Positions 41,706-61,795 of a stretch of DNA of 64,000 nt are shown one piece after another. The position numbers and the translations under genes are program-made. Origin of the DNA: a virus; IMG/VR virus record IMGVR_UViG_3300025141_016157, positions 64,001 through 128,000 of that record; one strand, written 5' to 3'. Each line of letters starts with the position of its first letter. Position 1 is the first letter of the stretch. The notes under the pieces were generated by a model. That model was not told where the DNA came from. It made no database searches and saw only the letters and a list, made by a program, of their open reading frames with translations.

Positions 41706-42077
41706 ATGGAAGATAGACTCTTAGAAATATTTAGGAGAAGAGAATCTTTTATGAAGAGCCTTGGTGATTCTTCCGGAGAATCTATGAACTGGCCACTTGA
41801 TTTATCAAAAAAAGAAAATCAGCAACATGTCAGGGATATGGCACTAAGAGGTGTCGAAGAGATGTTTGAAGCACTTCAGCATTTAAAAAACTGGAAACCT
41901 CATCGGAAAACAGAAATAACTGAATTTGATAGAGAAGAATTTCTTGAAGAGATTGTAGATGCATTTAATTATTTTCTATCGATTCTTGTCCTTACAGGAT
42001 TTGATGATAATGATTTAATTGATGCATACAGAAGAAAAGACAAGATTATAAATGAAAGATTGAGGACTGGATATTGA
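41706..42077 (+). CDS. All-alpha dNTP pyrophosphatase (dimeric dUTPase/dCTPase-like)
   Basis: EE..E, WKPH, EE.VD..NY, Y..K...N..R...GY. Confidence 0.8.
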   Translation: MEDRLLEIFRRRESFMKSLGDSSGESMNWPLDLSKKENQQHVRDMALRGVEEMFEALQHLKNWKPHRKTEITEFDREEFLEEIVDAFNYFLSILVLTGFDDNDLIDAYRRKDKIINERLRTGY

Positions 42078-42985
42078 AAGTTAAAAAGCTATTTGAAGAT
42101 CAGAATTATTTTTCAAAGATGATAGGTACTGTGTGTAACACATCAGAAGATCTTGATAACTTTACAAAAACCCTATCTCTTGCACTTCATAAAGAAGTAA
42201 GTGATCTTGTATCTGCTACTAACTATAGATCTCACACTGATGATAGTATGGTTCCAGATGCAGACAAGATACTTTTTGAATCAGTAGATGTAATTAGATA
42301 TGCAGTAGCTATAATGAATGCGTGGAGCATAACTCCTGAAAAATTTCAAAAAGCATGGATACTAAAGGACAAGTATCTTTCACTTTCAAGAAAGATTGAA
42401 GGAAATACTTGGAAAGGGGAAAAAGTTGCAATTGTTGATATGGACGATGTTCTTTGTGAGTTTAGAGTAGGATTTTCAAATTGGCTAAATAAAAACTACA
42501 GCGTTATAACTGATGTAGAATCAAAAGAGTATTATTTTATTAATGCTCTTGAAAAAGCAGGTATAAACCCAGAGGGAATATTTTTAAAATTTGTATCTGA
42601 AGATGGATTCTCATCTTTAAAGCCAGCATCCGGTGCAATAGATTTTATTAAATCTCTTCAGGAGAAAGGTTATTTTATTCATATATTGACTGCAAGGCCA
42701 GGAGATAATCTAAGATGTCTTTATAATACACTTGACTGGCTTGACTCAAACAATGTCTGCTTTGACAAGGTTAGCTTCTCATCAGAAAAACTGAGATGGT
42801 GCATGCAATCAGAATACTGGTCATCAGGTGCAATAGAGTTTGCAATAGATGATTCACCTAAACATGCAGCAGAATATGCAAAACATGATATAAGAGTTCT
42901 TTTGCCAAGAAAGACTTATAATACAGAGGTTCAAAGTCTTTCAAATGTAATTGTCTATGATTCTTTCCTAGATATTGATATTTAA
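42074..42985 (+). CDS. Degenerate all-alpha dNTPase domain fused to HAD 5'-nucleotidase
   Basis: N-terminal KE..DL..E.VD..RY; C-terminal VDMDDVL, LTAR, K, IDD.P, YN. Confidence 0.75.
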   Translation: MKVKKLFEDQNYFSKMIGTVCNTSEDLDNFTKTLSLALHKEVSDLVSATNYRSHTDDSMVPDADKILFESVDVIRYAVAIMNAWSITPEKFQKAWILKDKYLSLSRKIEGNTWKGEKVAIVDMDDVLCEFRVGFSNWLNKNYSVITDVESKEYYFINALEKAGINPEGIFLKFVSEDGFSSLKPASGAIDFIKSLQEKGYFIHILTARPGDNLRCLYNTLDWLDSNNVCFDKVSFSSEKLRWCMQSEYWSSGAIEFAIDDSPKHAAEYAKHDIRVLLPRKTYNTEVQSLSNVIVYDSFLDIDI

Positions 42986-44588: not shown

Positions 44589-45575
44589 ATGCCAAAAAAT
44601 AAAAACTTAGAACCAGTTACTTTTCCAATGAAGATTAGATTTGACGAGGATCCGAGCACTGAGTTTAAGAATGATCTTGAATCAATTAATATTTCACTAC
44701 TAGACCATCCCGACCCGCTTAGGGCAAGAAGGATGGTGTACCAATTTATTAATGCAACATGGGAAGATGAGCCCGGTCTTCACAATCCAGACGATGTAGA
44801 TGACTGGAAGCTTTTTCAAGCACTAGAAGCTGCGCTTCAGTTCAAAGCTTTGCCTACAGTCTTGGAGACGCTTGATTTTACATTTAGAATTGAAGGAATC
44901 GATGTCCAGACAGTTACACATTTAATTCGGCATAGAACAGGATCTTTCTCTGCTCAGTGTACAGGAGACAGGTGGCAATCTCATGCAAATGCATTAGTTC
45001 CCGGTCCCATTCAGAATAGTCCTGAGATTTATGAAAGATGGAAAAGTCTAGTTGTTGAGTCAAAGAAGCTTTATTGTGACATGATTGATACAAGGAAGAT
45101 TTCGATTATGGATGCACGAACAATTCTTCCAAAGTGTCTCGAGACACATTATTACGCACGCTTTAATATGAAAGATCTTCTAAACTTTATTAGACAAAGA
45201 ATGGATAAGCAAATTCAGCCAACAACTGACAATATTATTGCATATCAGATGTACTTAGCCGTTGCAAGAATATTTCCAGAAGTTACAACAGTCGTGAATA
45301 TGCACTCACCTTCGAGACATTATGTTGCTACTGCAAGAACCGGAAAGGCAACAAATCTTTATTTTCCAGATAAAGATTCTGATTCGTTTGACTGGCACCC
45401 TAATGACTTTATCTACTCAGCATATCGCGATGAAGTAAATGGTACAGACCCAGATCTCGGCGGAAGAGAAAACTTTAAATTTTCAGAATTGGCATCAATG
45501 TACGATAGACAGGTCAATGACCTTGTAGAAAAGTACAATGAGTGGAAAGAAACTGTCGGATTTGAATCACCATAG
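44589..45575 (+). CDS. thyX: Divergent flavin-dependent thymidylate synthase-like protein
   Basis: E...FTF.I.G......H..RHR..SF, DAR.ILP, N...L..F...R. Confidence 0.75.
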   Translation: MPKNKNLEPVTFPMKIRFDEDPSTEFKNDLESINISLLDHPDPLRARRMVYQFINATWEDEPGLHNPDDVDDWKLFQALEAALQFKALPTVLETLDFTFRIEGIDVQTVTHLIRHRTGSFSAQCTGDRWQSHANALVPGPIQNSPEIYERWKSLVVESKKLYCDMIDTRKISIMDARTILPKCLETHYYARFNMKDLLNFIRQRMDKQIQPTTDNIIAYQMYLAVARIFPEVTTVVNMHSPSRHYVATARTGKATNLYFPDKDSDSFDWHPNDFIYSAYRDEVNGTDPDLGGRENFKFSELASMYDRQVNDLVEKYNEWKETVGFESP

Positions 45576-46915: not shown

Positions 46916-47356
46916 ATGAAAGCGTATCTTGCAAGTTCATGGTTTAACCCTGTTGCAAATCAAGAGGTTGATGATATTATCTCATCACTTGAGAACAATA
47001 ACTTTGAGGTATTTTCACCTCGTGATTTTTTTGTTTGTCCGCCAACTGCTGACCTGGCAACACAAAAGTCAACCTATGAGGGAAATCTTGAACATCTTCA
47101 CAAGTGTGATTTTATGGTTTGTAATACTCATGGAAAAGATATGGGTTCAATTTTTGAAGCTGGATATTTTAAAGCACTTGAAAAGCCTATCGTTTATTTC
47201 TGCGCTGGGCTGCCCGCAGGGGCGGCATTCAACTTAATGTTGGCACAGAGCGGAGTAAAAGTATGCACATCTATTGATGAGCTTAATGACTACATGGCAC
47301 GCTGTAACTCAGAGGGTAAGCTTCTTTTCGAGCCATACTATGGAAATATTGAGTAG
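46916..47356 (+). CDS. Nucleoside 2-deoxyribosyltransferase/nucleotide N-glycosidase family
   Basis: YLAS.WF, VFSP, D.G..FE.GY..AL.KP, NLML; start at 46916 (AAGGAG RBS). Confidence 0.85.
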   Translation: MKAYLASSWFNPVANQEVDDIISSLENNNFEVFSPRDFFVCPPTADLATQKSTYEGNLEHLHKCDFMVCNTHGKDMGSIFEAGYFKALEKPIVYFCAGLPAGAAFNLMLAQSGVKVCTSIDELNDYMARCNSEGKLLFEPYYGNIE

Positions 47357-47420: not shown

Positions 47421-50400
47421 ATGTCATCTATTATTAAACCCAAGAAGTTTGTCGGTCTACATGCACATTCTGGAACAGGTAGTCCGTATGACGGTCTTGG
47501 ATATCCAAACCAGCATATTGACTTTGTCTTGTCAAATGAAATGAATGCATGGGCACTGACTGATCACGGTAACGGTAACGGTCTTGCCCATGCACATGCT
47601 TATGCAAAGAAGCTAAAGAAGAAAGGTAGGGATTATCGACAGATTTATGGTGTTGAGTTTTACTTTGTACCTTCATTGCTTGAATGGCGTGAATCTTACG
47701 AAGCACATCGTGAAGAAGTTCGTGCAGCAAGGTCTGAAAAGAAGTTAAAAGAGTCAACAGATATTAACTCTGAAGATGAGATTTCTGGAGGTCTTATAAT
47801 TGAAAATGAAGATGAGACAAAAAATGATTTCGAGAAAAACGATTGGAAGAGGCGATATCACCTAGTTGTCATCGCAAAGAATCAAATTGGTCTACAGAAT
47901 CTTTTCACTCTTGTCAAGAAGTCTTATACAGATGGTTTCTACAGATTCCCTAGAATTGATTACAATCTTCTCAAGATGCACGGTGAGGGTCTTGTAGTAA
48001 GTACAGCATGCATTGGTGGCTATCCCTCATCTTTAATTGCTAGAGGGGAGGCAACAGGCAAGTCTGATAGTGATATTATTCTAGATTTAGAAAACATGTC
48101 TGATAGATTTATTGATGCCGTAGGCAGGAAAAACTTTAATCTAGAAGTTCAATTTAACTCTCTATCAATGCAACATAAAACCAATAAGCATCTTATTTCT
48201 CTACATGAGAAAACAGGTATACCGCTTGTCGCTACTGCTGATAGTCACTACTATGGTAGAAATATGTGGGAAGCACGAGAATTGTATAGAAAACTCGGCC
48301 GCATGGGTGCAAGAGGAGATGCAATGCCGTCACTTCCAGCTTTTGAAGACTTGAAGTGTGAGCTCTATCCCAAGAATGCTGAACAAATGTGGGATGAGTA
48401 TAAACAGCATGCTTCAAGCTATGATTTCTACAAGGGTAAAGATCAGCTAATAGCTGATGCAATTGAAAGATCTTACGATATTGCATGGGAACAATGCGAA
48501 GATGTCTGGTTTGATGAGGAGGCAAAGCTTCCAAGATTTGGTACACCGACAGACTCAGCATTCAATCAGCTAGCACGAAGAGTTAAAGAGGCACTAGTTA
48601 AAGAAGACCTTCATAAAGATCAAGAATATGTTGATCGTGCAAAGATGGAGCTAGATGATATCAAGTATCTTGGATTTGAAAACTATTTCCTAACTATGAC
48701 AAAGGTTTTTGACCTAGCATCACAAAGCACTATTATCGGCCCAGGTCGCGGCTCTGGCGCTGGATCACTAGTTAACTACTTGCTAGGAATTACAACAACA
48801 GACCCGATTAAATATGGGCTTCTATGGGAGAGATTTCTTCACAGGGCAAAGGCAGGATGGCCAGACATTGATACAGATGCTGGTGATAGAGATGTCCTGA
48901 TCAATGCTTCAAGAGAACTTTTCGGAGAAGAGTCTGTTGTTCCAGTTTCCAATTTTAATACACTTAAGCTTAAGTCCCTTGTTAAGGATGTTTCAAAGTT
49001 TTATGGTATTGACTTTGGCGAAGTTAACGCAATGACAAATACTTTAGAAAAAGATGTTATGCATAAAGCTATGGGTGATCATGAAGAAAGATCAACATAT
49101 GTTCTTACACATGAAGATTGTATGAAGTACTCGCAGAAGTATTCTGATTTTATGGATGAATACCCGAAGGTAAGTGAACATGTCCAGAATCTTTTTATGG
49201 AGTCTAGATCAATTGGTAGACATGCTGGGGGTGTTTTAATCTGCCCGAATCTCGAGAAGCATATGCCCGTTATTAAGGTAAGGGGCGAATTGCAAACACC
49301 ATGGTCTGAAGGTATGAACTTTAGACATCTTGAAACAAACGGATTTCTTAAGTTTGATTTTCTCGGTCTAACAACACTTAAGATGGTCGAAGATTGTACA
49401 AGACTTATTCTTAGAAAGCAAGGCAATCTATCACCTACGTTTGCTGATATTCAAAAGTTCTTTGATGAAAAGATGAATTGTAGATATAATGATCTTGATG
49501 ATCAAAATGTATGGGAGCATGTTTACCATAAGGGTCGGTTTGTACAGGTATTCCAGTTTACCCAGCAAGGCGCAAGAAACTTTTGCACTTCTGCAAAGCC
49601 AAGTACTATTGAAGAATTAGCAACAATTACAGCAATCTATCGGCCAGGACCTCTTTCTGCTGGTGTTCATAGAAAGTACGTAAAAGCTAAGAAGTCAGTT
49701 GAGGATGGTAAACCTATTGAGTATGATCACCCTGTTATCGAAGAGATTCTAAGCGAAACTTACGGCTTTATCTCGTTCCAAGAGCAGTTCATGCTCTTAG
49801 CACAGAAGCTAGCTAATTTTGACAAGGGTGCATCAGATAAGATGCGTAAGACACTAGTTAAGAAATCACTCGATTCAAATGCTGCAAAGGTTCAAGAAAG
49901 AATTGACCTTCACAAGAAGTTTGTCAACGGTGCAGTTGAGATATCTGGGATGGATAAGGACAAGGCTGAGAAGCTCTATGAGACAATTGAATTCTTCTCT
50001 GGGTATGGCTTCAATAAGTCGCATGCAGTGTCCTACGCCATTGATTCCTATTACTCTGCATGGCTTCACACATACTATGAAAAAGAATGGCTTGCAACAT
50101 GCTTGCAAACACAAAATGGCTCTAGTAAGTTTGGAAAGGTCATCTCTGAGATTAAATCACTAGGATATACAATTTTACCGCCTGACATCAACGCCTCTTC
50201 TGATGTCTGGGTTTACAGTGATGAGAGGGGAGGCTTTGTCCCACCTCTAACAGCAATCAAGGGTGTTGGCGACGCTGCCGTTGCAGAGATTATGGAAAGG
50301 AGACCATTCTCCAGTCTTGATGAGATGATGTTTACTGAGGATGGCAAGTGGCGACCATCAAAGATGAACAAGACATGTTTTAGCTCACTTTCTTTGGTCG

Positions 50401-50978
50401 AGGCTTTTGGAAGCCTAGATGAGTTCAAAACTGGAAAGGTACTAAATCACAGACAACTTTACACTGTTATCATTGACAACTATGACCTCCTTAAGAAGGG
50501 CAGACATGGAATGACAAAGACTGCTGTTAAGAAATTGTTAAAGGAACAGGACTACATTCCAAACTTTATCGATATCAAGCTTAACGAGGTTGATGGAATG
50601 CCTGACTGGAATCGTGCAGAGAAGATTGGAAACAGTGTTGAATTAATGGCAAGTGCAGATGAGACTCTTGTATTCCCGCCAAGAATTATGGCAAAGATTG
50701 AAAAGGCAGATGTTCGCCCAGTCACTGCACTCTCGGGAAAAGAAAGAGATATTGTCTGGTTCTGTATTCAAACAATGGAAGAGAGAACAACAAAGAACAA
50801 CAAGAAGTTCTATCGGATGAAGGTCATGGATAATAACTCTGAGAGCTGCTGGCTCCGTGTCTGGGGTAGGTTTGATGATCCCCCTGACCTATATACCATG
50901 TGGCTGGCTGAAGTAGCTTCTACAGAGTCCTGGGGTTGTTCTACATCATCATATAAGATGAAGAAGCTAGAGGTTTAG
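47421..50978 (+). CDS. dnaE: DNA polymerase III alpha subunit
   Basis: PHP LH.HS..DG, TDHG, DSHY; GRGS.AGSLV, PDIDTD, HAGG, KFDFLGL, YRPGP, YGFNKSHA..Y, PDIN.S, IKGVG. Confidence 0.96.
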   Translation: MSSIIKPKKFVGLHAHSGTGSPYDGLGYPNQHIDFVLSNEMNAWALTDHGNGNGLAHAHAYAKKLKKKGRDYRQIYGVEFYFVPSLLEWRESYEAHREEVRAARSEKKLKESTDINSEDEISGGLIIENEDETKNDFEKNDWKRRYHLVVIAKNQIGLQNLFTLVKKSYTDGFYRFPRIDYNLLKMHGEGLVVSTACIGGYPSSLIARGEATGKSDSDIILDLENMSDRFIDAVGRKNFNLEVQFNSLSMQHKTNKHLISLHEKTGIPLVATADSHYYGRNMWEARELYRKLGRMGARGDAMPSLPAFEDLKCELYPKNAEQMWDEYKQHASSYDFYKGKDQLIADAIERSYDIAWEQCEDVWFDEEAKLPRFGTPTDSAFNQLARRVKEALVKEDLHKDQEYVDRAKMELDDIKYLGFENYFLTMTKVFDLASQSTIIGPGRGSGAGSLVNYLLGITTTDPIKYGLLWERFLHRAKAGWPDIDTDAGDRDVLINASRELFGEESVVPVSNFNTLKLKSLVKDVSKFYGIDFGEVNAMTNTLEKDVMHKAMGDHEERSTYVLTHEDCMKYSQKYSDFMDEYPKVSEHVQNLFMESRSIGRHAGGVLICPNLEKHMPVIKVRGELQTPWSEGMNFRHLETNGFLKFDFLGLTTLKMVEDCTRLILRKQGNLSPTFADIQKFFDEKMNCRYNDLDDQNVWEHVYHKGRFVQVFQFTQQGARNFCTSAKPSTIEELATITAIYRPGPLSAGVHRKYVKAKKSVEDGKPIEYDHPVIEEILSETYGFISFQEQFMLLAQKLANFDKGASDKMRKTLVKKSLDSNAAKVQERIDLHKKFVNGAVEISGMDKDKAEKLYETIEFFSGYGFNKSHAVSYAIDSYYSAWLHTYYEKEWLATCLQTQNGSSKFGKVISEIKSLGYTILPPDINASSDVWVYSDERGGFVPPLTAIKGVGDAAVAEIMERRPFSSLDEMMFTEDGKWRPSKMNKTCFSSLSLVEAFGSLDEFKTGKVLNHRQLYTVIIDNYDLLKKGRHGMTKTAVKKLLKEQDYIPNFIDIKLNEVDGMPDWNRAEKIGNSVELMASADETLVFPPRIMAKIEKADVRPVTALSGKERDIVWFCIQTMEERTTKNNKKFYRMKVMDNNSESCWLRVWGRFDDPPDLYTMWLAEVASTESWGCSTSSYKMKKLEV

Positions 50979-52341: not shown

Positions 52342-52381
52342 AACAATTATTAAGAATAATTATATTAAGAGCAAAGTTATT

Positions 52382-53314
52382 ATGAAAATCACACACAAGC
52401 GGCTAAAAAGAATTATAAGAGAAGAGCTTCTACGTGAGGCCAGTGGAGCTGCAGGTCCGGGCACAGTTCCAGGATACAATTATATTGAGGTATCTGAGTA
52501 CAGAGGTAAACCTGCTCACATGATAAATGCTAAGCATCTCAAAAGAACTTTGAAAGAGACATTGGGTATAAAGCAACATGGAACGGCTGACGACCACTTC
52601 CACCAGGCGGGCTTGGGAGGTATTATTTCTGGTTGGGGAAGCCTAAGTAAGAAACTAACAAAAATCTGGAGCGATCGAATCCCCCAGGGACAAGGCGGTC
52701 ATGGAACGGGATGCCAAAGCTGCTGGGCAGACTTCTTTATTCTTGTAGATCTTGGAAAATGTGGAGCATCTCAGGCATACTTGATCCCTGGTGTTAGCGT
52801 TGTTGAAGATATTCCAATTATAGTATTTGGAGATATTAGTCTTGAGCCTCTAATTGATCACATAGCAGATGAAGCAGGCTTGGCGATAATTGGGAAAGGC
52901 GAAAAAAGAGATGATGCTGAACAACAGACTGTTGAAAATGAGTGGGCAGAATGGACAGGTAGACAGTATGAGCTTATTAGTAAATTTCATAATAAGGTGT
53001 ATTATGGAGGCGAGATGCTTTCCGACCTATTACACGATGCATTTGTTTTCCGGACACCAGTAATTGTTGTGCTCCCAAGGTCATCGCTAATTAAAGATAT
53101 TGATCCGTGTGTCATTGCTAAAAATTATCAACTTCTTAGAGCGCCACCGGTGACACCGGTGGCTCCAGCTGTTAAGGATGAAGTAGAGCTTGATCCTGCA
53201 AGCGTGGAGATAGATCCCCAGGGCCAGCAAATAGATATTGATTCTGAGATATATGATGCGCCTCTTGAGCCGTATAAATCTCCCTTTAGAACTCCAATAG
53301 GTAAGCAAGATTAA
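52382..53314 (+). CDS. Hypothetical protein with N-terminal tag
   Basis: Probable start at ATG 52382 (MKITHKRLKRIIREELLREAS), preceded by ATAATTA. Confidence 0.8.
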   Translation: MKITHKRLKRIIREELLREASGAAGPGTVPGYNYIEVSEYRGKPAHMINAKHLKRTLKETLGIKQHGTADDHFHQAGLGGIISGWGSLSKKLTKIWSDRIPQGQGGHGTGCQSCWADFFILVDLGKCGASQAYLIPGVSVVEDIPIIVFGDISLEPLIDHIADEAGLAIIGKGEKRDDAEQQTVENEWAEWTGRQYELISKFHNKVYYGGEMLSDLLHDAFVFRTPVIVVLPRSSLIKDIDPCVIAKNYQLLRAPPVTPVAPAVKDEVELDPASVEIDPQGQQIDIDSEIYDAPLEPYKSPFRTPIGKQD

Positions 53315-53315
53315 A

Positions 53316-56300: not shown

Positions 56301-56393
56301 AGAAAGGAAGCAGGAATAAACGTTGAGTACATTGACATGCAGGAGTCAGTTGTATATGTGTCTCGGTGGATGAAACTTGCAGGTATAAAATGA
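53316..56393 (+). CDS. Large multidomain protein: N-terminal tag, hydrophobic segment, zincin, C-terminal RWxxLAGIK
   Basis: MKITESRIRRIIREELLKE; LSHELGHWID...GELDAE; ends SRWMKLAGIK. Confidence 0.85.
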   Translation: MKITESRIRRIIREELLKEDSEDTVLGKMSWPMAPGVSDPFGELRSSNPPPVLSTSMWYDLDGDAMLSSHKIESKKFIEHLMDTIEHRGGVANSVANAGHIAAVYKEMGVETRIAPYPGPKHWGAGDYESWGEFPGSARSFFKKYDPWVLDADEIFLVTVDNTSYRAPGQKVTEIEPEDMEMGVEYGGTTDPAAGKIKRALSSLLGDLTLPAHYDPSPVQLTAAKSWLSQWLPGGNPSPEMARAMAATNPYNAVWETFLGPIKECLSGQAAAKEEATRRASKQDDFYSREGADITFAGGATSEDTQAVLKQMQKTGEAEKISDESIGTSSAGLCASARASELIALLVLPSGQFTLAGRIALAAGLVHLARGSHREAMFELLLGAFEIVAATKAIVRYTAVVKSALRSGKLPADDILEEMIKAGVFEEHADIIRRLARQPKMEEEVQAMRQEMARVIETMDSTDPLKPYLDAYVRGASSDELRGIYKAAKAEIESGARWDIHTSTRRAADIDPDELDAWLERLEDLPLTSSPGSRKAVIDKYIESQISINRALEAEQATARGAGRGKSTPENPWGKGPEPKAIRPAGSKAPLAQTANMGRQIIDLAYAKLRSIPDGKIYKIAKFERGHFSDVDRIEIRLDGLFDVDDIEKIVDDSLGDYLNTLTPPQASRYKQDVIEEIQNLDFVVGPRTPDRVGQYVQSGPGQRGQVWVEPFDKEEWKAIVGTNRDRPDFEEAVKKAFIDALDSGTKFDLPEQVRNTLSHELGHWIDLTIEGNKYDHLIVDSNGIPMREIDGKQMTFDQAVKERKVKTIEEWLQDPPDIFGDFVTQPWHGRIGELDAEITRGVTDFQDSLEASIKRIRDLDDQYKLPWDISPRKPPRDQQPVASDSPSAWDRRSTTKHPSQTTRRQEPKKWDDAETKSAMHKEEMAEIGLDELDYTYQILTDKDLFRDIFVGDYFPIEPNRGYLDDYGWVGSAENIVDQKIDDVLFEPGGLWDWARKEAGINVEYIDMQESVVYVSRWMKLAGIK

Positions 56394-56584: not shown

Positions 56585-57493
56585 ATGATGTTAATGTTTC
56601 CAACACAAAATTTATTTATCGAAGGTCCTGACTGTTCAGGAAAGACAACACTCGTTAGAAATATTCACGATCTTTCCAGATACAAATGGCATATTCATGA
56701 TAGATCTCAGATATCAAGAAAGATCTTTAAGTATGAATACAGTAGAAATCTTTACTATTCTGACGATGATTTTCACAGGGAGATTTTTAATCTTAACAAT
56801 AGGTTTATTTTTCTACTCCCAGATATTGAAATAATAAAAGATAGATTTAAATTGAGAGGGGATAATATTCACAAGAGTATAAGCGATATTGAAAAAGTTT
56901 ATCATCTTTTTAAAGAAGAGCTTGAGCGTATCTCCAGTTTACCAAATATTATACCGTGTTTCTCAGTTGCGACACCCAGGGCTGTTGAAGCTCTATGCAC
57001 AACGCTGTCTCTAATAGAAAGAACAATGCTGAGAGAAGTTTCAGATCAAGTTATAAAATCTGTCAATTTTTGTGGTGATGAATGCTTTCCTATTGAGTTT
57101 ACTCTGTACGACAATGGAATGTTTGAAGAGGCAGATCCATTATCAATGAGATATAAGCCCGAGGAGGAGTATTATGAAAAAATCTATGATAGAGTTCACA
57201 ATAAAATTACAAATGAAATGCTGGGAAAAAATGAGTATAGTAGAACAGAATCATTTTTATCAAGAAGATTTGTTTATTCCGATGATAGTTGCATATCATT
57301 TATTCAGCTTTCAGTAAGAAAAAATGTTATGGATTTTCACACAGTAATAAGATCAACAGACGTCAAGAATATCTTTCCTCATGATCTTAAATTTTTATAC
57401 TATCTTGCATCAACATGTTACAAAAGGTTCAAAGATAAGTGTAGTTCAGCAAGGCTTCGTTTTAATTTGAACTCTGCACACATAATTAGTTAA
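56585..57493 (+). CDS. dNMP kinase fused to ThyA-fold (dCMP hydroxymethylase-like) domain
   Basis: IEGPDCSGKTT, DRS..S; C-terminal SC...IQ......RSTD....FPHD....SAHI. Confidence 0.7.
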   Translation: MMLMFPTQNLFIEGPDCSGKTTLVRNIHDLSRYKWHIHDRSQISRKIFKYEYSRNLYYSDDDFHREIFNLNNRFIFLLPDIEIIKDRFKLRGDNIHKSISDIEKVYHLFKEELERISSLPNIIPCFSVATPRAVEALCTTLSLIERTMLREVSDQVIKSVNFCGDECFPIEFTLYDNGMFEEADPLSMRYKPEEEYYEKIYDRVHNKITNEMLGKNEYSRTESFLSRRFVYSDDSCISFIQLSVRKNVMDFHTVIRSTDVKNIFPHDLKFLYYLASTCYKRFKDKCSSARLRFNLNSAHIIS

Positions 57494-57519: not shown

Positions 57520-58530
57520 ATGAGAGCACTAATCACAGGAGGTTGCGGATTTATTGGATCAAATCTTGCAAAAGCTCTTGTATCAAATGGCTGGACAGTA
57601 GACGTAGTAGATAATATGTCAGCAGGATCAATTTCTGCACTTGATAACTTAAAGATAAGACAATTACCCAATGCAAGCTTTTTACCACATTTTTATGAAA
57701 GTACTACTGGGACGGAAAGGGAAAGGATGCAAGATGAAATCTTGGTCATACCCGACGATCTTTCGCATGAATCAGTTTTAAATCATATAAGATCAAAAAT
57801 GTATGATATTGTCTTTCATCAGGCAGCAATACCACGAGTAAGCTACTCAGTTGAAAATCCTGCAGAAACCACATACGAAAATATTACAAAAACAGTTTCA
57901 CTTTTTGAAGCTTGTAATGGAAATGTTAAAAGGGTCGTCTGGGCATCTTCATCTTCAGTATATGGTGGCGCAAAGATTCTTCCAACTCCAGAATCAGAAA
58001 GAGGAAAGATGCTACCTCTTTCTCCATACGCCTGGCAAAAATTTGCGATTGAAGACTTTTCAAAGATTTGTGGAACACTCTATAATTTAGACATAGTGTG
58101 TTTAAGATATTTTAATGTTTTTGGACCTGGTCAGCTTGGAGACTCTCCGTATGCAACTGCAATATCTGCATGGTGCAATGCTGTAAAGAAAGGTTGCGGC
58201 CTTAGGAGTGACGGAGACGGCAATCAATCAAGAGATCTCTGCTATATAGAAAATGTTATCCATGCTAATATTCTAGCTGCTACTTCAAGTAAGACATTTA
58301 ACGGTAGATGCTATAATGTAGCTTGCGGAGATAGAGTTTCAAATAATGAAATATTAGAGTTTTTTACTAATAAATTTGATGCTAGTATTATAAATGCACC
58401 TGAGAGACCTGGTGATGTCAAGCATACACAGGCAGATATAACTAGAATACAAGATGAGCTTGGGTATTCACCAATTGTTGAATTTTGGGAAGGTCTAGAT
58501 AAAACTATCAAATGGTGGGGTCTTGAGTGA
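57520..58530 (+). CDS. NAD-dependent nucleotide-sugar epimerase/dehydratase
   Basis: TGGCGFIGS, ASSSSVYG, SPY...K, LRYFNVFGP, GDG.Q.RD, RPGDV. Confidence 0.93.
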   Translation: MRALITGGCGFIGSNLAKALVSNGWTVDVVDNMSAGSISALDNLKIRQLPNASFLPHFYESTTGTERERMQDEILVIPDDLSHESVLNHIRSKMYDIVFHQAAIPRVSYSVENPAETTYENITKTVSLFEACNGNVKRVVWASSSSVYGGAKILPTPESERGKMLPLSPYAWQKFAIEDFSKICGTLYNLDIVCLRYFNVFGPGQLGDSPYATAISAWCNAVKKGCGLRSDGDGNQSRDLCYIENVIHANILAATSSKTFNGRCYNVACGDRVSNNEILEFFTNKFDASIINAPERPGDVKHTQADITRIQDELGYSPIVEFWEGLDKTIKWWGLE

Positions 58531-58952
58531 GTATTAAAATTCCAAAACATGTAAAATCTTCATGGGTAAAAAAAGGCATGTCAAAGCCAATACAAAAACC
58601 GTGGGGCCATGAATATGTGTGGGCAGGATTTTCAGGAATTCATGGAAAATCTCTATTTATAAAAAAAGATCATAGAACAAGCTTTAAGTATCATAGTTTA
58701 AAAACTGAAGTTTTGTTTCTTCAAAAAGGAACAGCAGAAGTTACGTTTGGCGATGAATACTCATTACGAGATCCAGTTGGACACCCATTTAAAATAGAAA
58801 TCATTGATGCCGGAAGCTCTCTAATGGTACAGTCAAATTGCCCCTATAGAATAAAAGCAATATCTGACTGTGAGATTATTGAAATAGGTAATAACTCATC
58901 AGATACACCAGTAAGAATAGAAGATGACTACGGAAGAATAGAAAATGAATAG
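58527..58952 (+). CDS. Cupin (mannose-6-phosphate isomerase-like)
   Basis: KPWG.E, S..YH..K.E, IIE, RIEDDYGR. Confidence 0.8.
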   Translation: MSIKIPKHVKSSWVKKGMSKPIQKPWGHEYVWAGFSGIHGKSLFIKKDHRTSFKYHSLKTEVLFLQKGTAEVTFGDEYSLRDPVGHPFKIEIIDAGSSLMVQSNCPYRIKAISDCEIIEIGNNSSDTPVRIEDDYGRIENE

Positions 58953-59514
58953 AATGCCAGAATTTATTATATTTACAGGTCCAATGTTTGGAGCAAAAAC
59001 AAGCAGGCTACTAGCAACAATTGATAGATTTTCATATCAAAATAGAAAAGTAATAGCATTTAAACCTAAAATAGATAGAAGATATTCGCAGACAGATATA
59101 ACAACACATAACGGAATTTCTATTGAAGCACATGCTGTCAATACAGGTGAAGATATAGTATCTCAGGTTCTTGAAAGAGAAGATTGCATAGACGTTGTAG
59201 CTGTTGATGAAGCATTTATGATAGAAGATTGTGCAGATTCCCTGTTAAAGCTATTTAGAATGGGAAAGACAATAGTAGTTTCATCTCTTCAGCTGTCTGC
59301 ATCTGGAAATGTTTTTACAGAGATTAGAGATATGATGCCATGGGCAACCAAGATAGAAGTTTGTCCAGCAGTTTGCACTGTTTCTGGTCATGATGCATAT
59401 TATACACACAAGAAGGTAGATGATCTTGCAGAAATTACTGTTGGTGGATCAGAGCTTTATGAACCTCGTTCATGGAAACATCATTCCTTCATGAATCAAA
59501 CTTTTAAAAATTGA
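58945..59514 (+). CDS. tdk: Thymidine kinase
   Basis: GPMFG.KT, KP..D.RY, VDEA, AVC, VGG.E.YEP. Confidence 0.9.
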   Translation: MNRMPEFIIFTGPMFGAKTSRLLATIDRFSYQNRKVIAFKPKIDRRYSQTDITTHNGISIEAHAVNTGEDIVSQVLEREDCIDVVAVDEAFMIEDCADSLLKLFRMGKTIVVSSLQLSASGNVFTEIRDMMPWATKIEVCPAVCTVSGHDAYYTHKKVDDLAEITVGGSELYEPRSWKHHSFMNQTFKN

Positions 59515-59521
59515 GAAAAAA

Positions 59522-60436
59522 ATGATTGAACCTACTAGTGTAAATTGCGTAATTTATCATGCTGATTGTACCGATGGTTTTGGTGCTGCTTATGCCGCAT
59601 GGAAATGCTTGGGCAATAGAGCTGAATATCATCCATGTAAGCACGGCATGGATACACCAGACATAACGGGAAAAAGCGTTGTTATTTTAGATTTTTCCTT
59701 TGACAACTCAACAACAAAAAAAATGATTTCTGATGCTGAGTCATTGCTTGTAATTGACCATCATAAATCTGCAATGGTTGAGTTGCATGATATTACTAAT
59801 ACTCGTTTTGATATGACTAAGAGCGGAGCAATGCTAGCTTGGGAATTTTTTCATCCCGGGAAAGAACCTCCAAAGTTCATCCAGTATATTCAAGATAGAG
59901 ATCTTTGGAAGTGGGAACTCCCATACTCAAGAGAGTTTGCAGCAGCGTTTGACATGGTACCATTTGAGTTTGAAGAATTTGAGAAGTTTGAAGATGATTC
60001 TGTATTTGATGATGCTAGAAAGAGAGGGTCCTTTATCCTAGCTTATTCTAAGACAGTTGTTAAGAAAGTGTGTGAAAAAGCATCACCTCGAAAAATGATG
60101 GGAAAGGATGTAATGGTGGTAAATGCTTCACACTGGATGTCAGAGATTGGAGCTAGACTAGCTCCTGACTGTGATCTTGCTATGATATGGTACTGGGATC
60201 ATGATGCAAAGCATACAAAAGTTAGCCTAAGAGCGTTTCATGATACCGTAGACGTTTCAGAGATAGCTAAGAAATTTGGCGGAGGCGGGCATAGAAAAGC
60301 AGCGGGATTTCAACTTCCAAAAAATAAGCATGTAGAAGATTTATTTGATAAGCCAAAGCCTGCAAAGAAGAAGAGGGTGACAAGGCCAAAAACTAAAGCA
60401 AAGCAAGATCAGCAAAAAAAAGATGATGAAAAATAA
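59522..60436 (+). CDS. DHH/DHHA1 phosphoesterase
   Basis: YH.DC.DG, LDF, IDHH, DRDLW, SLR, GGGGH..AAGF; basic tail. Confidence 0.9.
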   Translation: MIEPTSVNCVIYHADCTDGFGAAYAAWKCLGNRAEYHPCKHGMDTPDITGKSVVILDFSFDNSTTKKMISDAESLLVIDHHKSAMVELHDITNTRFDMTKSGAMLAWEFFHPGKEPPKFIQYIQDRDLWKWELPYSREFAAAFDMVPFEFEEFEKFEDDSVFDDARKRGSFILAYSKTVVKKVCEKASPRKMMGKDVMVVNASHWMSEIGARLAPDCDLAMIWYWDHDAKHTKVSLRAFHDTVDVSEIAKKFGGGGHRKAAGFQLPKNKHVEDLFDKPKPAKKKRVTRPKTKAKQDQQKKDDEK

Positions 60437-60447
60437 GGTTATAGCCA

Positions 60448-61089
60448 ATGTCAACTATATTTGAAAAAGATGGAAGAAGAATTCTATTTGTTCATATTCC
60501 TAAGTGCTCCGGTACATCTGTTAGAATGATGCTCCAGGAGGAAGGGTGGAAACCTCAACCTCAGCATATAATAAGGCCAACATTCTTTATCACAGGAGAG
60601 TTTGCTGGTCCCGTTACGTCTAATCATCAGCACGCAGAGATGAGAAATGACTGGATTTCAAAATGGGATTATGAGTTTGCACTTGTAAGAAATCCATATG
60701 ATAGATTAGTATCTCGTGGAAAACAGTCAGCAAGAAGGCTAAAGCTTACTTATATCAAAGAAGTTAATTTTTTTGCTTGGGCAGATGATGTTCTAGGAAG
60801 AGTTATGAGAAAAGAGGGTCCCGGCGCAGAAGATAATCACTACAGACCACAAGTAGAATTTATTTCAGATAAAACTCAATGGTTTAGAATGGAAGACCAG
60901 AAAGAGCTTTTTTTAGAAACCCTTAGAAAGGAGAATATAATATCAAACACTGCAAAGCTTGGCGTTTTTAACAAATCTCTTTCTGAGAATAATGAGTATA
61001 GCTTTAATTGGGGTATGTTTCCCGATATCCACAAAAGATTTTTAGATAAATACAAAAAAGATTTTGACGTATTTGGATATAAAATATGA
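60448..61089 (+). CDS. Sulfotransferase family protein
   Basis: FVHIPKCSGTS, VRNPYDR.VS, H..PQ, Y..DF..FGY. Confidence 0.85.
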   Translation: MSTIFEKDGRRILFVHIPKCSGTSVRMMLQEEGWKPQPQHIIRPTFFITGEFAGPVTSNHQHAEMRNDWISKWDYEFALVRNPYDRLVSRGKQSARRLKLTYIKEVNFFAWADDVLGRVMRKEGPGAEDNHYRPQVEFISDKTQWFRMEDQKELFLETLRKENIISNTAKLGVFNKSLSENNEYSFNWGMFPDIHKRFLDKYKKDFDVFGYKI

Positions 61090-61499
61090 AAAGGCCGACG
61101 TGGAATAAAATATGGCTAGAGTTTGCAAACTCTATATCAAAAAGATCATATGATCCAAGGTACAGAGTTGGAGCAGTAATAGTAACAGAAGATAACACAC
61201 AGGTTTTATCAGTAGGGTATAATGGTAACTATGCAGGAGGGCCAAATCAAGTTGAATCTACAGTTCCAGGAGAGTCTGGAATGATACATGCTGAAATTAA
61301 TGCTTTGCTTAAAATGGATTATAATAATCCAAAGTCTAAAAAGTTATACCTTACTTTATCACCGTGCAGAATGTGTGCAAAGGCAATAATAAATGCAGGA
61401 ATATCAGAAGTTTTTTATTCCGAGATCTATAGAGATGATTCATCTCTTAAAATTCTAGATGAGTCGGGAATAAAACATAAGCTAATTCAATTAGAGTAA
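61086..61499 (+). CDS. dCMP deaminase
   Basis: VGAVI, GYNG, HAE.NA, SPC..C. Confidence 0.92.
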   Translation: MKRPTWNKIWLEFANSISKRSYDPRYRVGAVIVTEDNTQVLSVGYNGNYAGGPNQVESTVPGESGMIHAEINALLKMDYNNPKSKKLYLTLSPCRMCAKAIINAGISEVFYSEIYRDDSSLKILDESGIKHKLIQLE

Positions 61500-61516: not shown

Positions 61517-61795
61517 ATGAAAGAATTGAACTCTAAATCCATCAACAAATTAGTCTCTTATATAAGAGAGAACCTATCAGTATCTGCAGGCACAGGTGAT
61601 AACAAAAGAATTCTTATCAAGCCCGGGTTGAAAATAACGCATGTGGGCAATAAAGAAAATCAGGGTTCTGGGCTCAATTATACAGTTGATGCAGTTTTAG
61701 ATTCAGAAGATGGATTACTTATAAGATGTGTAAGACCCCCAGACGTCTTTATCACACTCACAGGCACTGACCTAAAACAGTTTGAGAGAACATAA
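61517..61795 (+). CDS. Hypothetical protein
   Basis: 92 aa; ATAATTA upstream; TAATG coupling to the next gene. Confidence 0.7.
   Translation: MKELNSKSINKLVSYIRENLSVSAGTGDNKRILIKPGLKITHVGNKENQGSGLNYTVDAVLDSEDGLLIRCVRPPDVFITLTGTDLKQFERT

What the first reader, a model, noticed from the sequence alone, without database searches (positions are those of the whole stretch)
56585..57493. Kinase fused to a ThyA-fold domain with the dCMP-specifying Asp
Seen: the N-terminus is a P-loop dNMP kinase. The C-terminus has C(57290)...Q...RSTD-VKNIFPH-D(57383)...SAHI. Known: E. coli ThyA has RSCD-x7-N177 (dUMP), whereas T4 dCMP hydroxymethylase has RSND-x7-D (dCMP). The domain is short and appears to lack much of the folate-binding region. 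Inference: this is a compact enzyme that modifies dCMP (chemistry perhaps not folate-dependent) and phosphorylates the product.
Basis: partly seen in the sequence, partly recalled or inferred. Interest (0 to 1): 0.75.

Follow-up and report, generated by a model that had tools for sequence, protein, structure and literature searches.

The report
Phage kinase fused to mini thymidylate-synthase
An uncultured marine phage encodes one protein that joins a small nucleotide kinase to a stripped-down thymidylate-synthase-type domain with a cytosine-reading active site, so it and hundreds of relatives probably make an altered cytosine nucleotide for their DNA; which alteration cannot be told from sequence.

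Summary
ORF 56585-57493 (302 aa) has two confidently modelled domains. Residues 5-146 form a YorR/thymidylate-kinase-like P-loop kinase. Residues 147-302 form a 156-residue thymidylate-synthase (TS) fold. The TS domain keeps the catalytic Cys236, the Arg pair 227/228, Arg256-Ser257, His299, and Asp267 at the position where ThyA has Asn177.

Profile comparison links the domain to T4 dCMP hydroxymethylase (E 4.6e-8). Fold searches put the flavin-dependent dCMP hydroxylase AfhB first, but only marginally. The middle helices and C-terminal arm that hold folate in ThyA are absent.

The fusion is virus-only and has no relative in cultured phages. It lies downstream of dnaE in 81 of 81 loci. It also exists split, as an adjacent kinase gene and mini-TS gene.

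Best reading (about 0.55): a homodimeric enzyme that modifies dCMP at C5 and phosphorylates the product. The chemistry is unresolved. The published Asp169-to-Asn marker for hydroxylases flips at least 11 times within this family.

This scan already reported the same family at least seven times on other genomes, with the same reading. It is a new variant of a known kind.

The parts
56585..57493 (+). Whole gene: kinase / mini-TS fusion, 302 aa plus stop. The true start may be the ATG at 56588.
   Evidence: ORF list. More than 250 homologues of about 300 aa. Model pLDDT 93.8, pTM 0.90.
56597..57022 (+). N-terminal P-loop nucleotide-kinase domain (residues about 5-146), YorR/TMPK/dNK-like and unusually small.
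   Evidence: VIA Z 13.1 (2jaq), 13.0 (YorR 3kb2) and 11.5 (TMPKs). Family profile against YorR 2axp gives E 1.2e-5. phrog_761 'thymidylate kinase' gives E 1.2e-7. Pfam hits lie only below threshold.
56624..56650 (+). P-loop (Gly14, Asp16, Gly19, Lys20, Thr21, Thr22).
   Evidence: Gly14, Asp16, Gly19 and Lys20 are invariant in 77 of 77 sequences.
56699..56719 (+). Asp39-Arg40-Ser41...Ser44-Arg45: inferred binding site for the acceptor nucleotide.
   Evidence: Asp39 and Arg40 are 77/77 and Ser44 is 75/77. The role is inferred from position in the kinase fold, not tested.
56843..56863 (+). LID segment Arg87...Arg91-Gly92-Asp93.
   Evidence: Invariant. Aligns with the Arg-x-Arg-Gly-Asp-Glu stretch of YorR.
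57023..57490 (+). C-terminal minimal thymidylate-synthase-fold domain (residues 147-302, 156 aa).
   Evidence: Domain-only model has pLDDT 97.1. Of its Foldseek matches in the PDB, 362 have E<=1e-3, and every match listed is a TS-superfamily enzyme, with AfhB 9iqu first at 7.1e-7. VIA gives Z 11.9 for MilA, 11.3 for AfhB and 11.0 for ThyA. hhalign to T4 gp42 gives E 4.6e-8.
57161..57175 (+). Glu193-x-x-Tyr196-Tyr197: inferred counterpart of ThyA Glu58 / T4 Glu60 (Glu-x-x-Trp-aromatic).
   Evidence: Glu193 is 77/77, Tyr196 75/77 and Tyr197 73/77. Also invariant in stand-alone forms. The correspondence rests on motif comparison with the T4 gp42 sequence; it is not a residue-level structural alignment.
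57260..57268 (+). Ser226-Arg227-Arg228: counterpart of ThyA Arg126/Arg127, which bind phosphate across the dimer.
   Evidence: Arg227 is 77/77 and Arg228 76/77. Aligned to the T4 gp42 Ser-Arg-Arg. In the dimer model, residue 227 touches residues 296/297 of the other chain.
57290..57292 (+). Cys236: counterpart of the catalytic nucleophile (ThyA Cys146, T4 Cys148).
   Evidence: 77/77. Aligned to the T4 and AfhB cysteines.
57317..57319 (+). Arg245: an Arg shared with T4 dCMP hydroxymethylase and AfhB.
   Evidence: 76/76. Aligned to the Arg-Asp motif of T4 gp42 and AfhB. MilA shows the same motif, where it is aligned to a different query (the L083 218-aa protein), not to this family. That E. coli ThyA has Ala at this position is from my memory of its sequence; no ThyA alignment was printed.
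57350..57361 (+). Arg256-Ser257-Thr258-Asp259: counterpart of ThyA Arg166-Ser167-Cys168-Asp169.
   Evidence: Arg256 and Ser257 are 76/76. Position 259 is Asn in 37, Asp in 29 and Glu in 10 sequences, with at least 11 changes on the family tree.
57383..57385 (+). Asp267: at the ThyA Asn177 / T4 Asp179 base-specificity position.
   Evidence: 76/76. Aligned to T4 Asp179.
57473..57481 (+). Ser297-Ala298-His299: counterpart of ThyA His207. The protein ends three residues later.
   Evidence: Ser297 is 75/77 and His299 76/76. Aligned to T4 Ser-Leu-His and AfhB Ser-Ala-His.
47421..50978 (+). dnaE-type DNA polymerase, the constant upstream neighbour of the fusion (context, not part of the enzyme).
   Evidence: Pfam DNA_pol3_alpha, PHP and finger domains. 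Present upstream in 81 of 81 loci.
41706..42985 (+). Two dUTPase_2-family genes, the second fused to an NT5C nucleotidase. Candidate dCTP/dUTP-clearing enzymes (inferred pathway partners).
   Evidence: Pfam PF08761 and PF06941.
44589..45575 (+). ThyX (flavin-dependent thymidylate synthase). Because the phage has it, the fusion is not needed for dTMP synthesis.
   Evidence: Pfam Thy1, E 2.2e-22.
57520..61499 (+). Downstream run: NAD-dependent sugar epimerase/dehydratase, unassigned 141-aa protein, thymidine kinase, DHH phosphoesterase, sulfotransferase-like protein, dCMP deaminase.
   Evidence: Pfam. Recurrence in the 81 loci: thymidine kinase 68, deaminase 65, epimerase 63, DHH 49, the 141-aa protein 24.

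Best explanation
The gene encodes a homodimeric, bifunctional enzyme of phage nucleotide metabolism.

Mini-TS domain (147-302), proposed mechanism:
- It binds a cytosine mononucleotide, most likely dCMP. Asp267 reads N3/N4 of cytosine. Arg256, Ser257 and Arg227'/Arg228' from the partner subunit hold the 5'-phosphate.
- Cys236 adds to C6. The activated C5 then attacks an electrophile stacked over the ring.
- Elimination of Cys releases 5-substituted dCMP.

Kinase domain (5-146): the fused YorR/TMK-like domain uses ATP to turn that product into the diphosphate. Host NDP kinase and the phage DnaE polymerase then carry it into DNA. dUTPase_2-family enzymes, dCMP deaminase and ThyX reshape the canonical pools.

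My odds for the group added at C5:
- Hydroxyl from a flavin hydroperoxide, as in AfhB and RB69 gp48: about 0.35.
- Hydroxymethyl from methylene-tetrahydrofolate, as in T4 gp42: about 0.20.
- Some other electrophile: about 0.15.

What is shown: the fold, the conserved catalytic inventory, the fusion/split relationship and the genomic context. What is inferred: substrate, chemistry, the order of the two activities, and DNA modification.
For: 1. Two domains are modelled at high confidence (pLDDT 93.8, pTM 0.90). The kinase aligns at Z about 13 and the TS fold at Z about 11-12, with about 141 of 156 residues aligned. The domain-only model gives only TS-superfamily hits in its listed matches, with the dCMP hydroxylase AfhB first.

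2. Sequence homology to the cytosine branch is significant: T4 dCMP hydroxymethylase at E 2.2e-4 and AfhB at 5.5e-3 in a PDB-wide profile search, and hhalign E 4.6e-8.

3. Cys236, Arg227/228, Arg245, Arg256, Ser257, Asp267, His299 and Glu193, together with the kinase P-loop and LID, are invariant or near-invariant in 77 sequences down to 29% identity. The TS-domain residues in this list are also conserved in stand-alone forms. That pattern argues for catalysis rather than a relic.

4. The position of ThyA Leu143 is acidic or polar here (Asp233; Asp 39, Ser 15, Gln 7, Asn 6 of 77). Hydroxymethylases and hydroxylases show this, methylases do not (rule from PMC13326640).

5. Relatives carry the kinase and the mini-TS as adjacent, overlapping genes next to ThyX, NT5C and dCMP deaminase. 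YorR/TMK-like kinase genes neighbour the proven 5-hydroxy-dCMP synthases in DLP3, RB69 and RL38J1.

6. A homodimer is predicted: score 0.88, best of 3 controls 0.00. That mark was reached by 20 of 30 proteins solved as pairs of one chain and by 1 of 23 solved as single chains. The runs agree in at least 94% of contacts, and partner pLDDT is at least 90. The interface is the TS sheet plus kinase residues 6-65, and residue 227 touches 296/297 of the partner. TS dimers are solved structures, so this pass may reflect likeness rather than independent evidence.

7. The phage has ThyX, so it does not need this domain for dTMP. The fusion is the only TS-fold gene on the 160-kb contig.

8. The gene is core in its lineage: dnaE lies upstream in 81 of 81 loci, with thymidine kinase and dCMP deaminase downstream in 68 and 65.

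9. The same contig carries an NDP-sugar gene set and two GT4-type glycosyltransferases. GT4 is the enzyme class that decorates 5-hydroxycytosine DNA in RB69 and DLP3.
Against: - No activity, cofactor or DNA chemistry has been measured, and no cultured phage carries the gene.
- The domain lacks about 34 residues between the Glu58 and Arg126 equivalents. By ThyA numbering that stretch carries Trp80, Trp83 and Tyr94. It also lacks everything after His207. Both T4 gp42 and AfhB keep the middle segment, so known cofactor sites may not exist here.
- Pfam PF00303 is not matched above threshold.
- The marker said to identify hydroxylases (Asp169 to Asn) is Asp in this protein. In the family it is Asn 37, Asp 29, Glu 10, with at least 11 switches, even between sister sequences. 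No active-site column co-varies with it, and gene context does not differ between the types.
- Fold and profile rankings of AfhB, T4 gp42, MilA and ThyA are effectively tied.
- Two of the five loci with a stand-alone mini-TS (L082 and L083, the two where the kinase gene lies directly upstream) also encode a second, larger cytosine-type TS homologue. The mini-TS may therefore do something different from ordinary dCMP C5 modification.
- The glycosyltransferase cluster is about 113 kb away and could serve surface polysaccharide instead.
Confidence: 0.55

Rival explanations
1. Folate-dependent dCMP hydroxymethylase (or methylase) plus kinase. This would be a trimmed equivalent of T4 gp42 fused to its nucleotide kinase, giving 5-hydroxymethyl- or 5-methyl-cytosine DNA.
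For: The best sequence-profile hit is T4 dCMP hydroxymethylase. This protein keeps Asp at the Asp169 position, which binds the pterin in ThyA. The phage already uses folate chemistry through ThyX. An acidic residue at the Leu143 position fits hydroxymethylation (rule from PMC13326640).
Against: The segments that hold the folate tail and close over it are missing (lengths and alignment ranges). Asp169 is normally conserved in folate enzymes but is freely Asp, Asn or Glu here. An acidic Leu143 position argues against a methylase.
Confidence: 0.2
2. The kinase does not phosphorylate the 5'-phosphate of the product. Either it is a deoxynucleoside kinase that feeds dCMP to the TS-like domain (salvage first, modification second), or it phosphorylates the new C5 hydroxyl or hydroxymethyl group to make a leaving group, as 5-hmdU DNA kinase does for thymidine hypermodification.
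For: The top structural matches of the N-domain are deoxynucleoside kinases and YorR (Z 13), slightly above thymidylate kinases (Z 11.5). RB69 and DLP3 have a separate gp1-type dNMP kinase; the RB69 one was shown to convert 5hodCMP to 5hodCDP. This leaves the cluster's small kinase without an assigned role. A dUTPase_2-NT5C fusion and a thymidine kinase in the window point to active nucleoside-level traffic. There is a weak BFVD match to SP10 5-hmdU DNA kinase (E 2.9e-3).
Against: The Asp-Arg-Ser...Ser-Arg stretch after strand 2 sits where NMP kinases bind the acceptor phosphate (inference from position). No gp1-type dNMP kinase was looked for in this genome. Fold cannot separate these kinase classes.
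Confidence: 0.15
3. The TS-like domain is not a C5-modifying enzyme. It is a nucleotide-binding or regulatory module for the kinase, or it catalyses a cofactor-free reaction, for example pool depletion by covalent capture or a C6-adduct-assisted reaction on a cytosine nucleotide.
For: Very little of a cofactor pocket remains. The Asp169 position drifts. Two of the five loci with a stand-alone mini-TS also carry a second, more conventional cytosine-type TS homologue.
Against: The nucleophile, the acid/base Glu and every phosphate ligand are invariant across fused and stand-alone forms. A canonical dCMP deaminase is already present in 65 of 81 loci.
Confidence: 0.1
4. An ordinary thymidylate synthase (dUMP to dTMP) fused to thymidylate kinase.
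For: The architecture resembles a viral cluster automatically named 'Thymidylate kinase/Thymidylate synthase domain-containing protein' (437 aa; Atlas score 0.91; a lead only).
Against: Asp, not Asn, is at the Asn177 position in 76 of 76 sequences. The folate-binding parts are absent. PF00303 is not matched. ThyX is present in the same genome.
Confidence: 0.02

Closest known systems
Flavin/O2-dependent 5-hydroxy-dCMP synthases of the TS superfamily: phage HY126 AfhB (PDB 9iqu, 9iqc), RB69 gp48, DLP3 gp80, RL38J1 gp216 (PMC13326640)
   Same: TS fold. It is the top Foldseek hit for both the whole protein and the isolated domain, with Z 11.3. Shared features are the catalytic Cys, Asp at the Asn177 position, an acidic residue at the Leu143 position, the Arg-Asp motif after the Cys strand, and a chain that ends soon after the Ser-Ala-His strand. 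A small YorR/TMK-like kinase gene lies beside the synthase in three phages; here it is fused.
   Different: Those enzymes are 217-238 residues in the crystal structures and keep the segment between the Glu58 and Arg126 equivalents. This domain has 156 residues and lacks that segment. Their diagnostic Asn at the Asp169 position is Asp here and is unstable across the family. They are not fused to a kinase. Flavin binding here is untested.
T4 gp42 deoxycytidylate hydroxymethylase (PDB 1b5d, 1b49), working with the separate gp1 dNMP kinase
   Same: Best sequence-profile relative (E 2.2e-4; hhalign E 4.6e-8). The Arg pair, Cys, Arg-Ser-x-Asp followed by seven residues and Asp, and Ser-x-His are all in register. 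The pathway logic is the same: make a modified dCMP, then phosphorylate it.
   Different: gp42 has 246 residues with a folate site. Only the C-terminal half aligns by sequence. The kinase here is YorR/TMK-like, not gp1-like, and is covalently joined.
MilA, CMP 5-hydroxymethylase of mildiomycin biosynthesis (PDB 5b6d, 5b6e)
   Same: Highest VIA score for the TS domain: Z 11.9, rmsd 3.0 A, 141 residues aligned. Cytosine-specific Asp.
   Different: MilA acts on the ribonucleotide, depends on folate, has 325 residues and a bacterial secondary-metabolism context.
Bacillus subtilis SPbeta YorR (PDB 2axp, 3kb2) and thymidylate / deoxynucleoside kinases
   Same: Fold (Z 13.0) and sequence (profile E 1.2e-5), with shared P-loop and Arg-x-Arg-Gly-Asp LID.
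   Different: YorR stands alone and has no known substrate. This domain has about 145 residues and is fused.

Membership tests
Thymidylate synthase superfamily (ThyA / dCMP hydroxymethylase fold) | TS alpha/beta fold with the central sheet that forms the dimer interface | tested here: met
   Foldseek probability 1.00, and only TS-superfamily entries among the matches listed. VIA Z 10.6-11.9 with about 141 of 156 residues aligned. A TS-like sheet-to-sheet homodimer is predicted (score 0.88, best control 0.00; likeness to solved TS dimers may explain the pass).
Thymidylate synthase superfamily (ThyA / dCMP hydroxymethylase fold) | Catalytic Cys (ThyA Cys146) and phosphate ligands (Arg126', Arg127', Arg166, Ser167), plus His207 | tested here: met
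   Cys236, Arg227, Arg228, Arg256, Ser257 and His299 are invariant or nearly so in 77 sequences and aligned to T4 gp42 and AfhB.
Thymidylate synthase superfamily (ThyA / dCMP hydroxymethylase fold) | Match to Pfam PF00303 at the curated threshold | tested here: not met
   No hit for this protein or in the genome. Only 2 of 62 family members reach even E 0.065.
Thymidylate synthase superfamily (ThyA / dCMP hydroxymethylase fold) | Folate-binding elements: the Trp80/Trp83 helix region, Tyr94, and the C-terminal arm | tested here: not met
   The chain ends 3 residues after His299. There are only 34 residues between the Glu58 and Arg126 equivalents, against 68 in ThyA. VIA aligns the domain to chain residues 1-210 (E. 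coli-type numbering) and no further. Residue roles come from established ThyA literature and PMC13326640.
Cytosine-specific branch (T4 gp42, MilA, AfhB) | Asp in place of ThyA Asn177 | tested here: met
   Asp267 in 76 of 76 sequences, aligned to T4 Asp179.
Cytosine-specific branch (T4 gp42, MilA, AfhB) | Acidic or polar residue at the ThyA Leu143 position (product not a methyl group) | tested here: met
   Asp233 here. In the family: Asp 39, Ser 15, Gln 7, Asn 6 of 77. Rule quoted from PMC13326640.
Flavin-dependent 5-hydroxy-dCMP synthase (AfhB, RB69 gp48) | Asn at the ThyA Asp169 position (the published diagnostic) | tested here: not met
   Asp259 in this protein. In the family it is Asn 37, Asp 29, Glu 10, with at least 11 changes on the tree. 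The rule therefore gives no consistent call for this clade.
Flavin-dependent 5-hydroxy-dCMP synthase (AfhB, RB69 gp48) | Binds a flavin and uses O2 to hydroxylate C5 | not testable with these tools
   Needs purified protein (colour, absorbance at 370/455 nm) and an 18-O2 assay, as in PMC13326640.
Folate-dependent dCMP hydroxymethylase (T4 gp42) | Conserved Asp169 and a complete folate pocket | tested here: not met
   Asp is present here but not conserved in the family, and the pocket elements are absent.
YorR / thymidylate kinase / deoxynucleoside kinase P-loop kinases | P-loop NTPase kinase fold with Walker A Lys and an Arg-rich LID | tested here: met
   Z 13.1-11.5. Gly14, Asp16, Gly19, Lys20, Arg87, Arg91, Gly92 and Asp93 are invariant. 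YorR profile hit at E 1.2e-5.
YorR / thymidylate kinase / deoxynucleoside kinase P-loop kinases | Pfam PF02223 or PF01712 at the curated threshold | tested here: not met
   Scores of 14.0 and 14.2 bits against cut-offs of 27. The separate kinase gene of the split form in L083 does pass PF02223 (31.1 bits).
YorR / thymidylate kinase / deoxynucleoside kinase P-loop kinases | Phosphate acceptor (nucleoside or nucleoside monophosphate) | not testable with these tools
   Fold and motifs do not separate the two classes.

The most novel reading that the evidence does not exclude
[quoted passage not shown] In this reading it uses neither the known folate pocket nor the known flavin pocket, possibly forms a composite active site with the fused kinase, and installs a cytosine modification not yet described, or a C5 phospho-intermediate made by the kinase. 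That would make an undescribed modified base a core feature of a large, abundant lineage of marine and freshwater DnaE-encoding phages.
Probability: 0.15. Interest if true: 0.85.

Novelty: new variant of a known kind. Interest (0 to 1): 0.62.

Why it matters
TS-superfamily enzymes make the non-canonical pyrimidines from which phages build hypermodified, restriction- and CRISPR-resistant DNA.

- This family is virus-restricted. It holds 455 clusters at 50% identity in a library of 1.84 billion representatives.
- It is unannotated and has no cultured representative.
- It sits beside the replicative polymerase in every locus examined.

If it is active, a whole lineage of abundant aquatic phages carries a modified cytosine that nobody has measured. 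That would affect how their DNA behaves in sequencing, restriction and host defence.

The 156-residue domain is also the smallest TS-fold catalytic candidate that I found. It is a natural test of which parts of the fold are needed for C6 attack, and of how the superfamily switched cofactors. The kinase fusion assigns a probable role to the unexplained small kinase genes next to 5-hydroxy-dCMP synthases in RB69, DLP3 and RL38J1.

Tried and rejected
- Pfam, PHROGs and single-sequence PDB searches of the whole protein gave only weak kinase hits. The TS relationship appeared only with family profiles and structure.
- tblastn of the whole protein and of each domain against 50,697 cultured-phage records found nothing usable: no match at all, or E 0.3-0.7 to two Pelagibacter podophages for the kinase.
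- BFVD holds no viral protein with both domains (best TMq 0.38).
- The scan of 185,579 prokaryote genomes gave one full-length hit, on a 26-kb MAG contig that is probably viral. The other hits were kinase-only.
- I tried to settle the chemistry with the Asp169-to-Asn rule. It failed: at least 11 switches, no co-varying active-site column, and the same gene context for the Asp, Asn and Glu types.
- I tried to rank AfhB, T4 gp42, MilA and ThyA by fold and by profile. The results are ties.
- I looked for a second TS-like or kinase-like gene within 10 kb in the 80 fused loci and on the whole 160-kb contig. None was found.
- T4-type beta-glucosyltransferase (PF09198) and GT2 (PF00535) are not found in the contig. 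The PF09198 control did not ring anywhere, so that result is uninformative.
I obtained context of the stand-alone forms through the search for related loci instead.
- Literature searches for a described kinase/TS fusion in phages found none.
- I could not obtain residue-level structural superpositions or model coordinates. The Glu193 = Glu58 assignment and the list of missing helices therefore rest on spacing and motifs.
Full report
**What is there**

The window is part of a 160-kb IMG/VR viral contig (window = contig 64001-128000). The contig belongs to a tailed phage with a contractile tail. It encodes a major head protein, a tail sheath, UvsX, a DnaB-type helicase and ribonucleotide reductase, and a DnaE-type polymerase.

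ORF 56585-57493 on the plus strand encodes 302 residues.
- Cys236 is at 57290.
- Arg-Ser-Thr-Asp is at 57350-57361.
- Seven residues later, Asp267 is at 57383.
- Ser-Ala-His-Ile is at 57473-57484.

Homologue N-termini suggest that the second ATG (56588) may be the true start.

**Two domains**

Single-sequence searches see only a weak P-loop kinase signal. An alignment of 32 homologues gave an AlphaFold2 model with mean pLDDT 93.8 and pTM 0.90.
- Residues about 5-146 align to deoxynucleoside kinases, SPbeta YorR and thymidylate kinases at Z 11.5-13.1.
- Residues 147-302 align to TS-superfamily enzymes: MilA Z 11.9 (141 residues aligned), AfhB Z 11.3, ThyA Z about 11.

Modelled alone, the C-domain has pLDDT 97.1. 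It has 362 PDB matches at E<=1e-3. Every match listed is from the TS superfamily, and the phage HY126 dCMP hydroxylase AfhB ranks first at 7.1e-7.

A profile of 62 C-domains finds T4 dCMP hydroxymethylase at E 2.2e-4 and AfhB at 5.5e-3 in the whole PDB. hhalign against T4 gp42 gives probability 94.9% and E 4.6e-8. The kinase profile finds YorR at E 1.2e-5.

**Active-site inventory**

I compared 77 distinct sequences from 80 IMG/VR loci, 29-70% identical to this one.

In the kinase, these are invariant or nearly so: Gly14, Asp16, Gly19, Lys20, Asp39, Arg40, Arg87, Arg91, Gly92, Asp93.

In the TS domain, these are invariant or nearly so: Glu166, Glu193, Tyr196/197, Glu211, Gly214, Asn216, Arg227, Arg228, Cys236, Arg245, Arg256, Ser257, Asp267, Phe270, Ser297, His299.

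The alignments to T4 gp42 and AfhB give these equivalences:

| This protein | ThyA | T4 gp42 |
|---|---|---|
| Arg227/228 | Arg126/127 | Ser-Arg-Arg |
| Cys236 | Cys146 | Cys148 |
| Arg256-Ser257 | Arg166-Ser167 | Arg-Ser |
| Asp267 | Asn177 | Asp179 |
| His299 | His207 | His in Ser-Leu-His |

Further points:
- Arg245 aligns to the Arg-Asp motif of T4 gp42 and AfhB, and MilA carries the same motif (seen against a different query). From my memory of the E. coli sequence, ThyA has Ala there.
- Asp233 occupies the Leu143 position. That position is acidic in hydroxymethylases and hydroxylases (PMC13326640).
- I infer that Glu193 corresponds to Glu58 from the Glu-x-x-aromatic-aromatic motif, which is also present in T4 gp42 (sequence).

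**What is missing**

The domain has 156 residues, against 264 in E. coli ThyA, 246 in T4 gp42 and 217-238 in the AfhB crystal chains.
- It ends three residues after His299, so the C-terminal arm is absent.
- Only 34 residues separate the Glu58 and Arg126 equivalents, against 68 in ThyA. By ThyA numbering that stretch holds Trp80, Trp83 and Tyr94.

T4 gp42 and AfhB both keep the middle segment, so this is a distinct, minimal clade.

**Distribution and context**

- The family has more than 250 clusters of about 300-aa proteins at 90% identity.
- In an exhaustive profile search of 1.84 billion representatives it has 455 clusters at 50% identity.
- It has no Pfam family, no relative in cultured phages, and no two-domain match in BFVD.
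- Among 185,579 prokaryote genomes there is only one full-length hit, on a MAG contig that is probably viral.

In the 81 loci (80 relatives plus the window):

| Neighbour | Loci (of 81) |
|---|---|
| dnaE upstream (immediately upstream in 42) | 81 |
| Thymidine kinase | 68 |
| dCMP deaminase | 65 |
| NAD-dependent sugar epimerase | 63 |
| SOD-like protein | 56 |
| DHH phosphoesterase | 49 |

These counts are; the families are.

The window also encodes ThyX, two dUTPase_2-family proteins (one fused to an NT5C nucleotidase) and a nucleoside 2-deoxyribosyltransferase-like protein. The phage therefore makes dTMP with ThyX. The fusion is its only TS-fold gene on the contig.

**Fusion and split forms**

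The exhaustive search also returned stand-alone mini-TS proteins of 164-228 residues with the same invariant residues.

In five viral loci carrying such forms:
- Two have a gene matching the fusion's kinase profile (E 1e-17 and 1e-14; Pfam thymidylate kinase 2.4e-7). It lies directly upstream of the mini-TS gene, and the reading frames overlap.
- A third has the kinase gene about 600 nt downstream.
- One of these loci also has ThyX, NT5C and dCMP deaminase alongside.

Lee et al. (PMC13326640) list a YorR- or TMK-like 'nucleotide kinase' gene close to the proven 5-hydroxy-dCMP synthase in DLP3, RB69 and RL38J1, and assign it no role. The kinase/TS-homologue pair thus recurs as fused, adjacent and neighbouring genes. 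This is the strongest evidence that the two activities belong to one pathway.

The ESM Atlas also points to a viral cluster of 437-aa proteins automatically named thymidylate kinase/thymidylate synthase (score 0.91). I treat that as a lead only.

**Quaternary structure**

Two copies of the protein are predicted to pair. The score is 0.88 and the best of 3 controls is 0.00. That mark was reached by 20 of 30 proteins solved as pairs of one chain and by 1 of 23 solved as single chains. The runs agree in at least 94% of contacts, and partner pLDDT is at least 90.

The interface combines the TS sheet (227-257, 290-297) with kinase residues 6-65. Residue 227 contacts 296/297 of the other chain. This is the arrangement by which ThyA's Arg126'/Arg127' reach the partner's active site. 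TS dimers are well represented among solved structures, so the pass may simply reflect that likeness.

**Which chemistry**

I could not resolve this.

Points favouring a flavin/O2 hydroxylase:
- AfhB is the top structural hit, though only marginally.
- The chain ends right after the Ser-Ala-His strand, as in AfhB.
- A small kinase is associated with known hydroxylase clusters.
- The contig start carries an NDP-sugar gene set (nucleotidyltransferase, PIG-L, WbqC, UDP-glucose dehydrogenase-like, epimerase) and two GT4 glycosyltransferases. GT4 is the class that arabinosylates 5-hydroxycytosine DNA.

Points favouring folate:
- T4 gp42 is the best profile hit.
- This protein has Asp at the Asp169 position.

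The published diagnostic (Asn at Asp169 predicts 5-hydroxy-dCMP synthesis) does not work for this family. The position is Asn in 37, Asp in 29 and Glu in 10 sequences. It changes at least 11 times on the tree, even between well-supported sister sequences. No active-site column co-varies with it, and gene context is the same for all three types. Either the residue no longer contacts a cofactor in the way it does in the full-size enzymes, or both side chains serve.

One observation argues for caution. L082 and L083, the two stand-alone loci where the kinase gene lies directly upstream of the mini-TS, also encode a second, larger cytosine-type TS homologue. The L083 one (218 aa) matches MilA at E 3e-8. 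The L082 one (248 aa) has no PDB hit by sequence but matches the C-domain profile. The mini-TS may therefore not simply duplicate ordinary dCMP C5 modification.

**Verdict**

The most likely function is a homodimeric enzyme that activates a cytosine mononucleotide at C6, adds a group at C5, and phosphorylates the product for incorporation by the phage's DnaE polymerase (about 0.55). My odds for the added group are hydroxyl about 0.35, hydroxymethyl about 0.20 and something else about 0.15.

This is a new, minimal, kinase-fused variant of a known kind of enzyme, and I found no description of it in the papers I could search. This scan had already reported the same family at least seven times on other genomes, with the same conclusion. 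I reached mine from my own tests.

- The instability of the Asp169 marker.
- The predicted dimer.
- The split forms with an overlapping kinase gene.
- The second TS homologue in two of the stand-alone loci.
- The distant sugar/glycosyltransferase cluster.

Noticed in passing
G000:C1:124-9147 (locus L089; outside the window, about 113 kb upstream of the fusion on the contig): A run of genes: sugar-1-phosphate nucleotidyltransferase, an unknown 379-aa protein, PIG-L deacetylase, WbqC-like protein, UDP-glucose dehydrogenase-like protein, NAD epimerase/dehydratase, PD-(D/E)XK nuclease, and two tandem GT4 glycosyltransferases. One of the glycosyltransferases also matches 'GT4 in conflict systems'. 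The run could decorate DNA or a surface polysaccharide.
   Followed up: partly
L083:2207-2863 and L082:2039-2785: Two phages that carry the kinase and mini-TS as adjacent separate genes also encode a second, larger cytosine-type TS homologue (218 and 248 aa). The 218-aa protein ends right after its Ser-Met-His strand, like AfhB; the 248-aa one continues about 17 residues past its Asn-Leu-His. Each has Asp at the Asn177 position. So these genomes have two cytosine-type TS-fold enzymes plus ThyX.
   Followed up: partly
window 42074-42985: A single ORF fuses a dUTPase_2-family (all-alpha NTP pyrophosphatase) domain to an NT5C-type deoxyribonucleotidase. It lies directly after a separate 123-aa dUTPase_2 fragment-like gene (41706-42077). 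It might take a dNTP all the way to the nucleoside.
   Followed up: no
window 46868-47356: A nucleoside 2-deoxyribosyltransferase-family gene (PF05014, E 5e-16) lies just upstream of dnaE. It is conserved in 46 of 81 related loci. The family includes nucleotide N-glycosidases such as MilB, the partner of MilA.
   Followed up: no
window 51010-56393: In this phage three genes (443, 342 and 1025 aa, no Pfam family) are inserted between dnaE and the fusion. In 42 of 81 relatives dnaE is the immediately preceding ORF.
   Followed up: no
window 61795-62484: A protein with an Fe/Mn superoxide-dismutase C-terminal domain lies in the same gene run and is conserved in 56 of 81 loci. It might relate to oxygen or flavin chemistry, or to ThyX and RNR. 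This is speculative.
   Followed up: no
window 37325-38188 and 35765-36367: A PLP-dependent (PALP family) enzyme and a ClpP-like protease are encoded among the replication and lysis genes.
   Followed up: no
window 58527-58952: The 141-aa ORF that overlaps the end of the epimerase gene has no Pfam match. Earlier notes call it a cupin. It recurs in only 24 of 81 loci.
   Followed up: no
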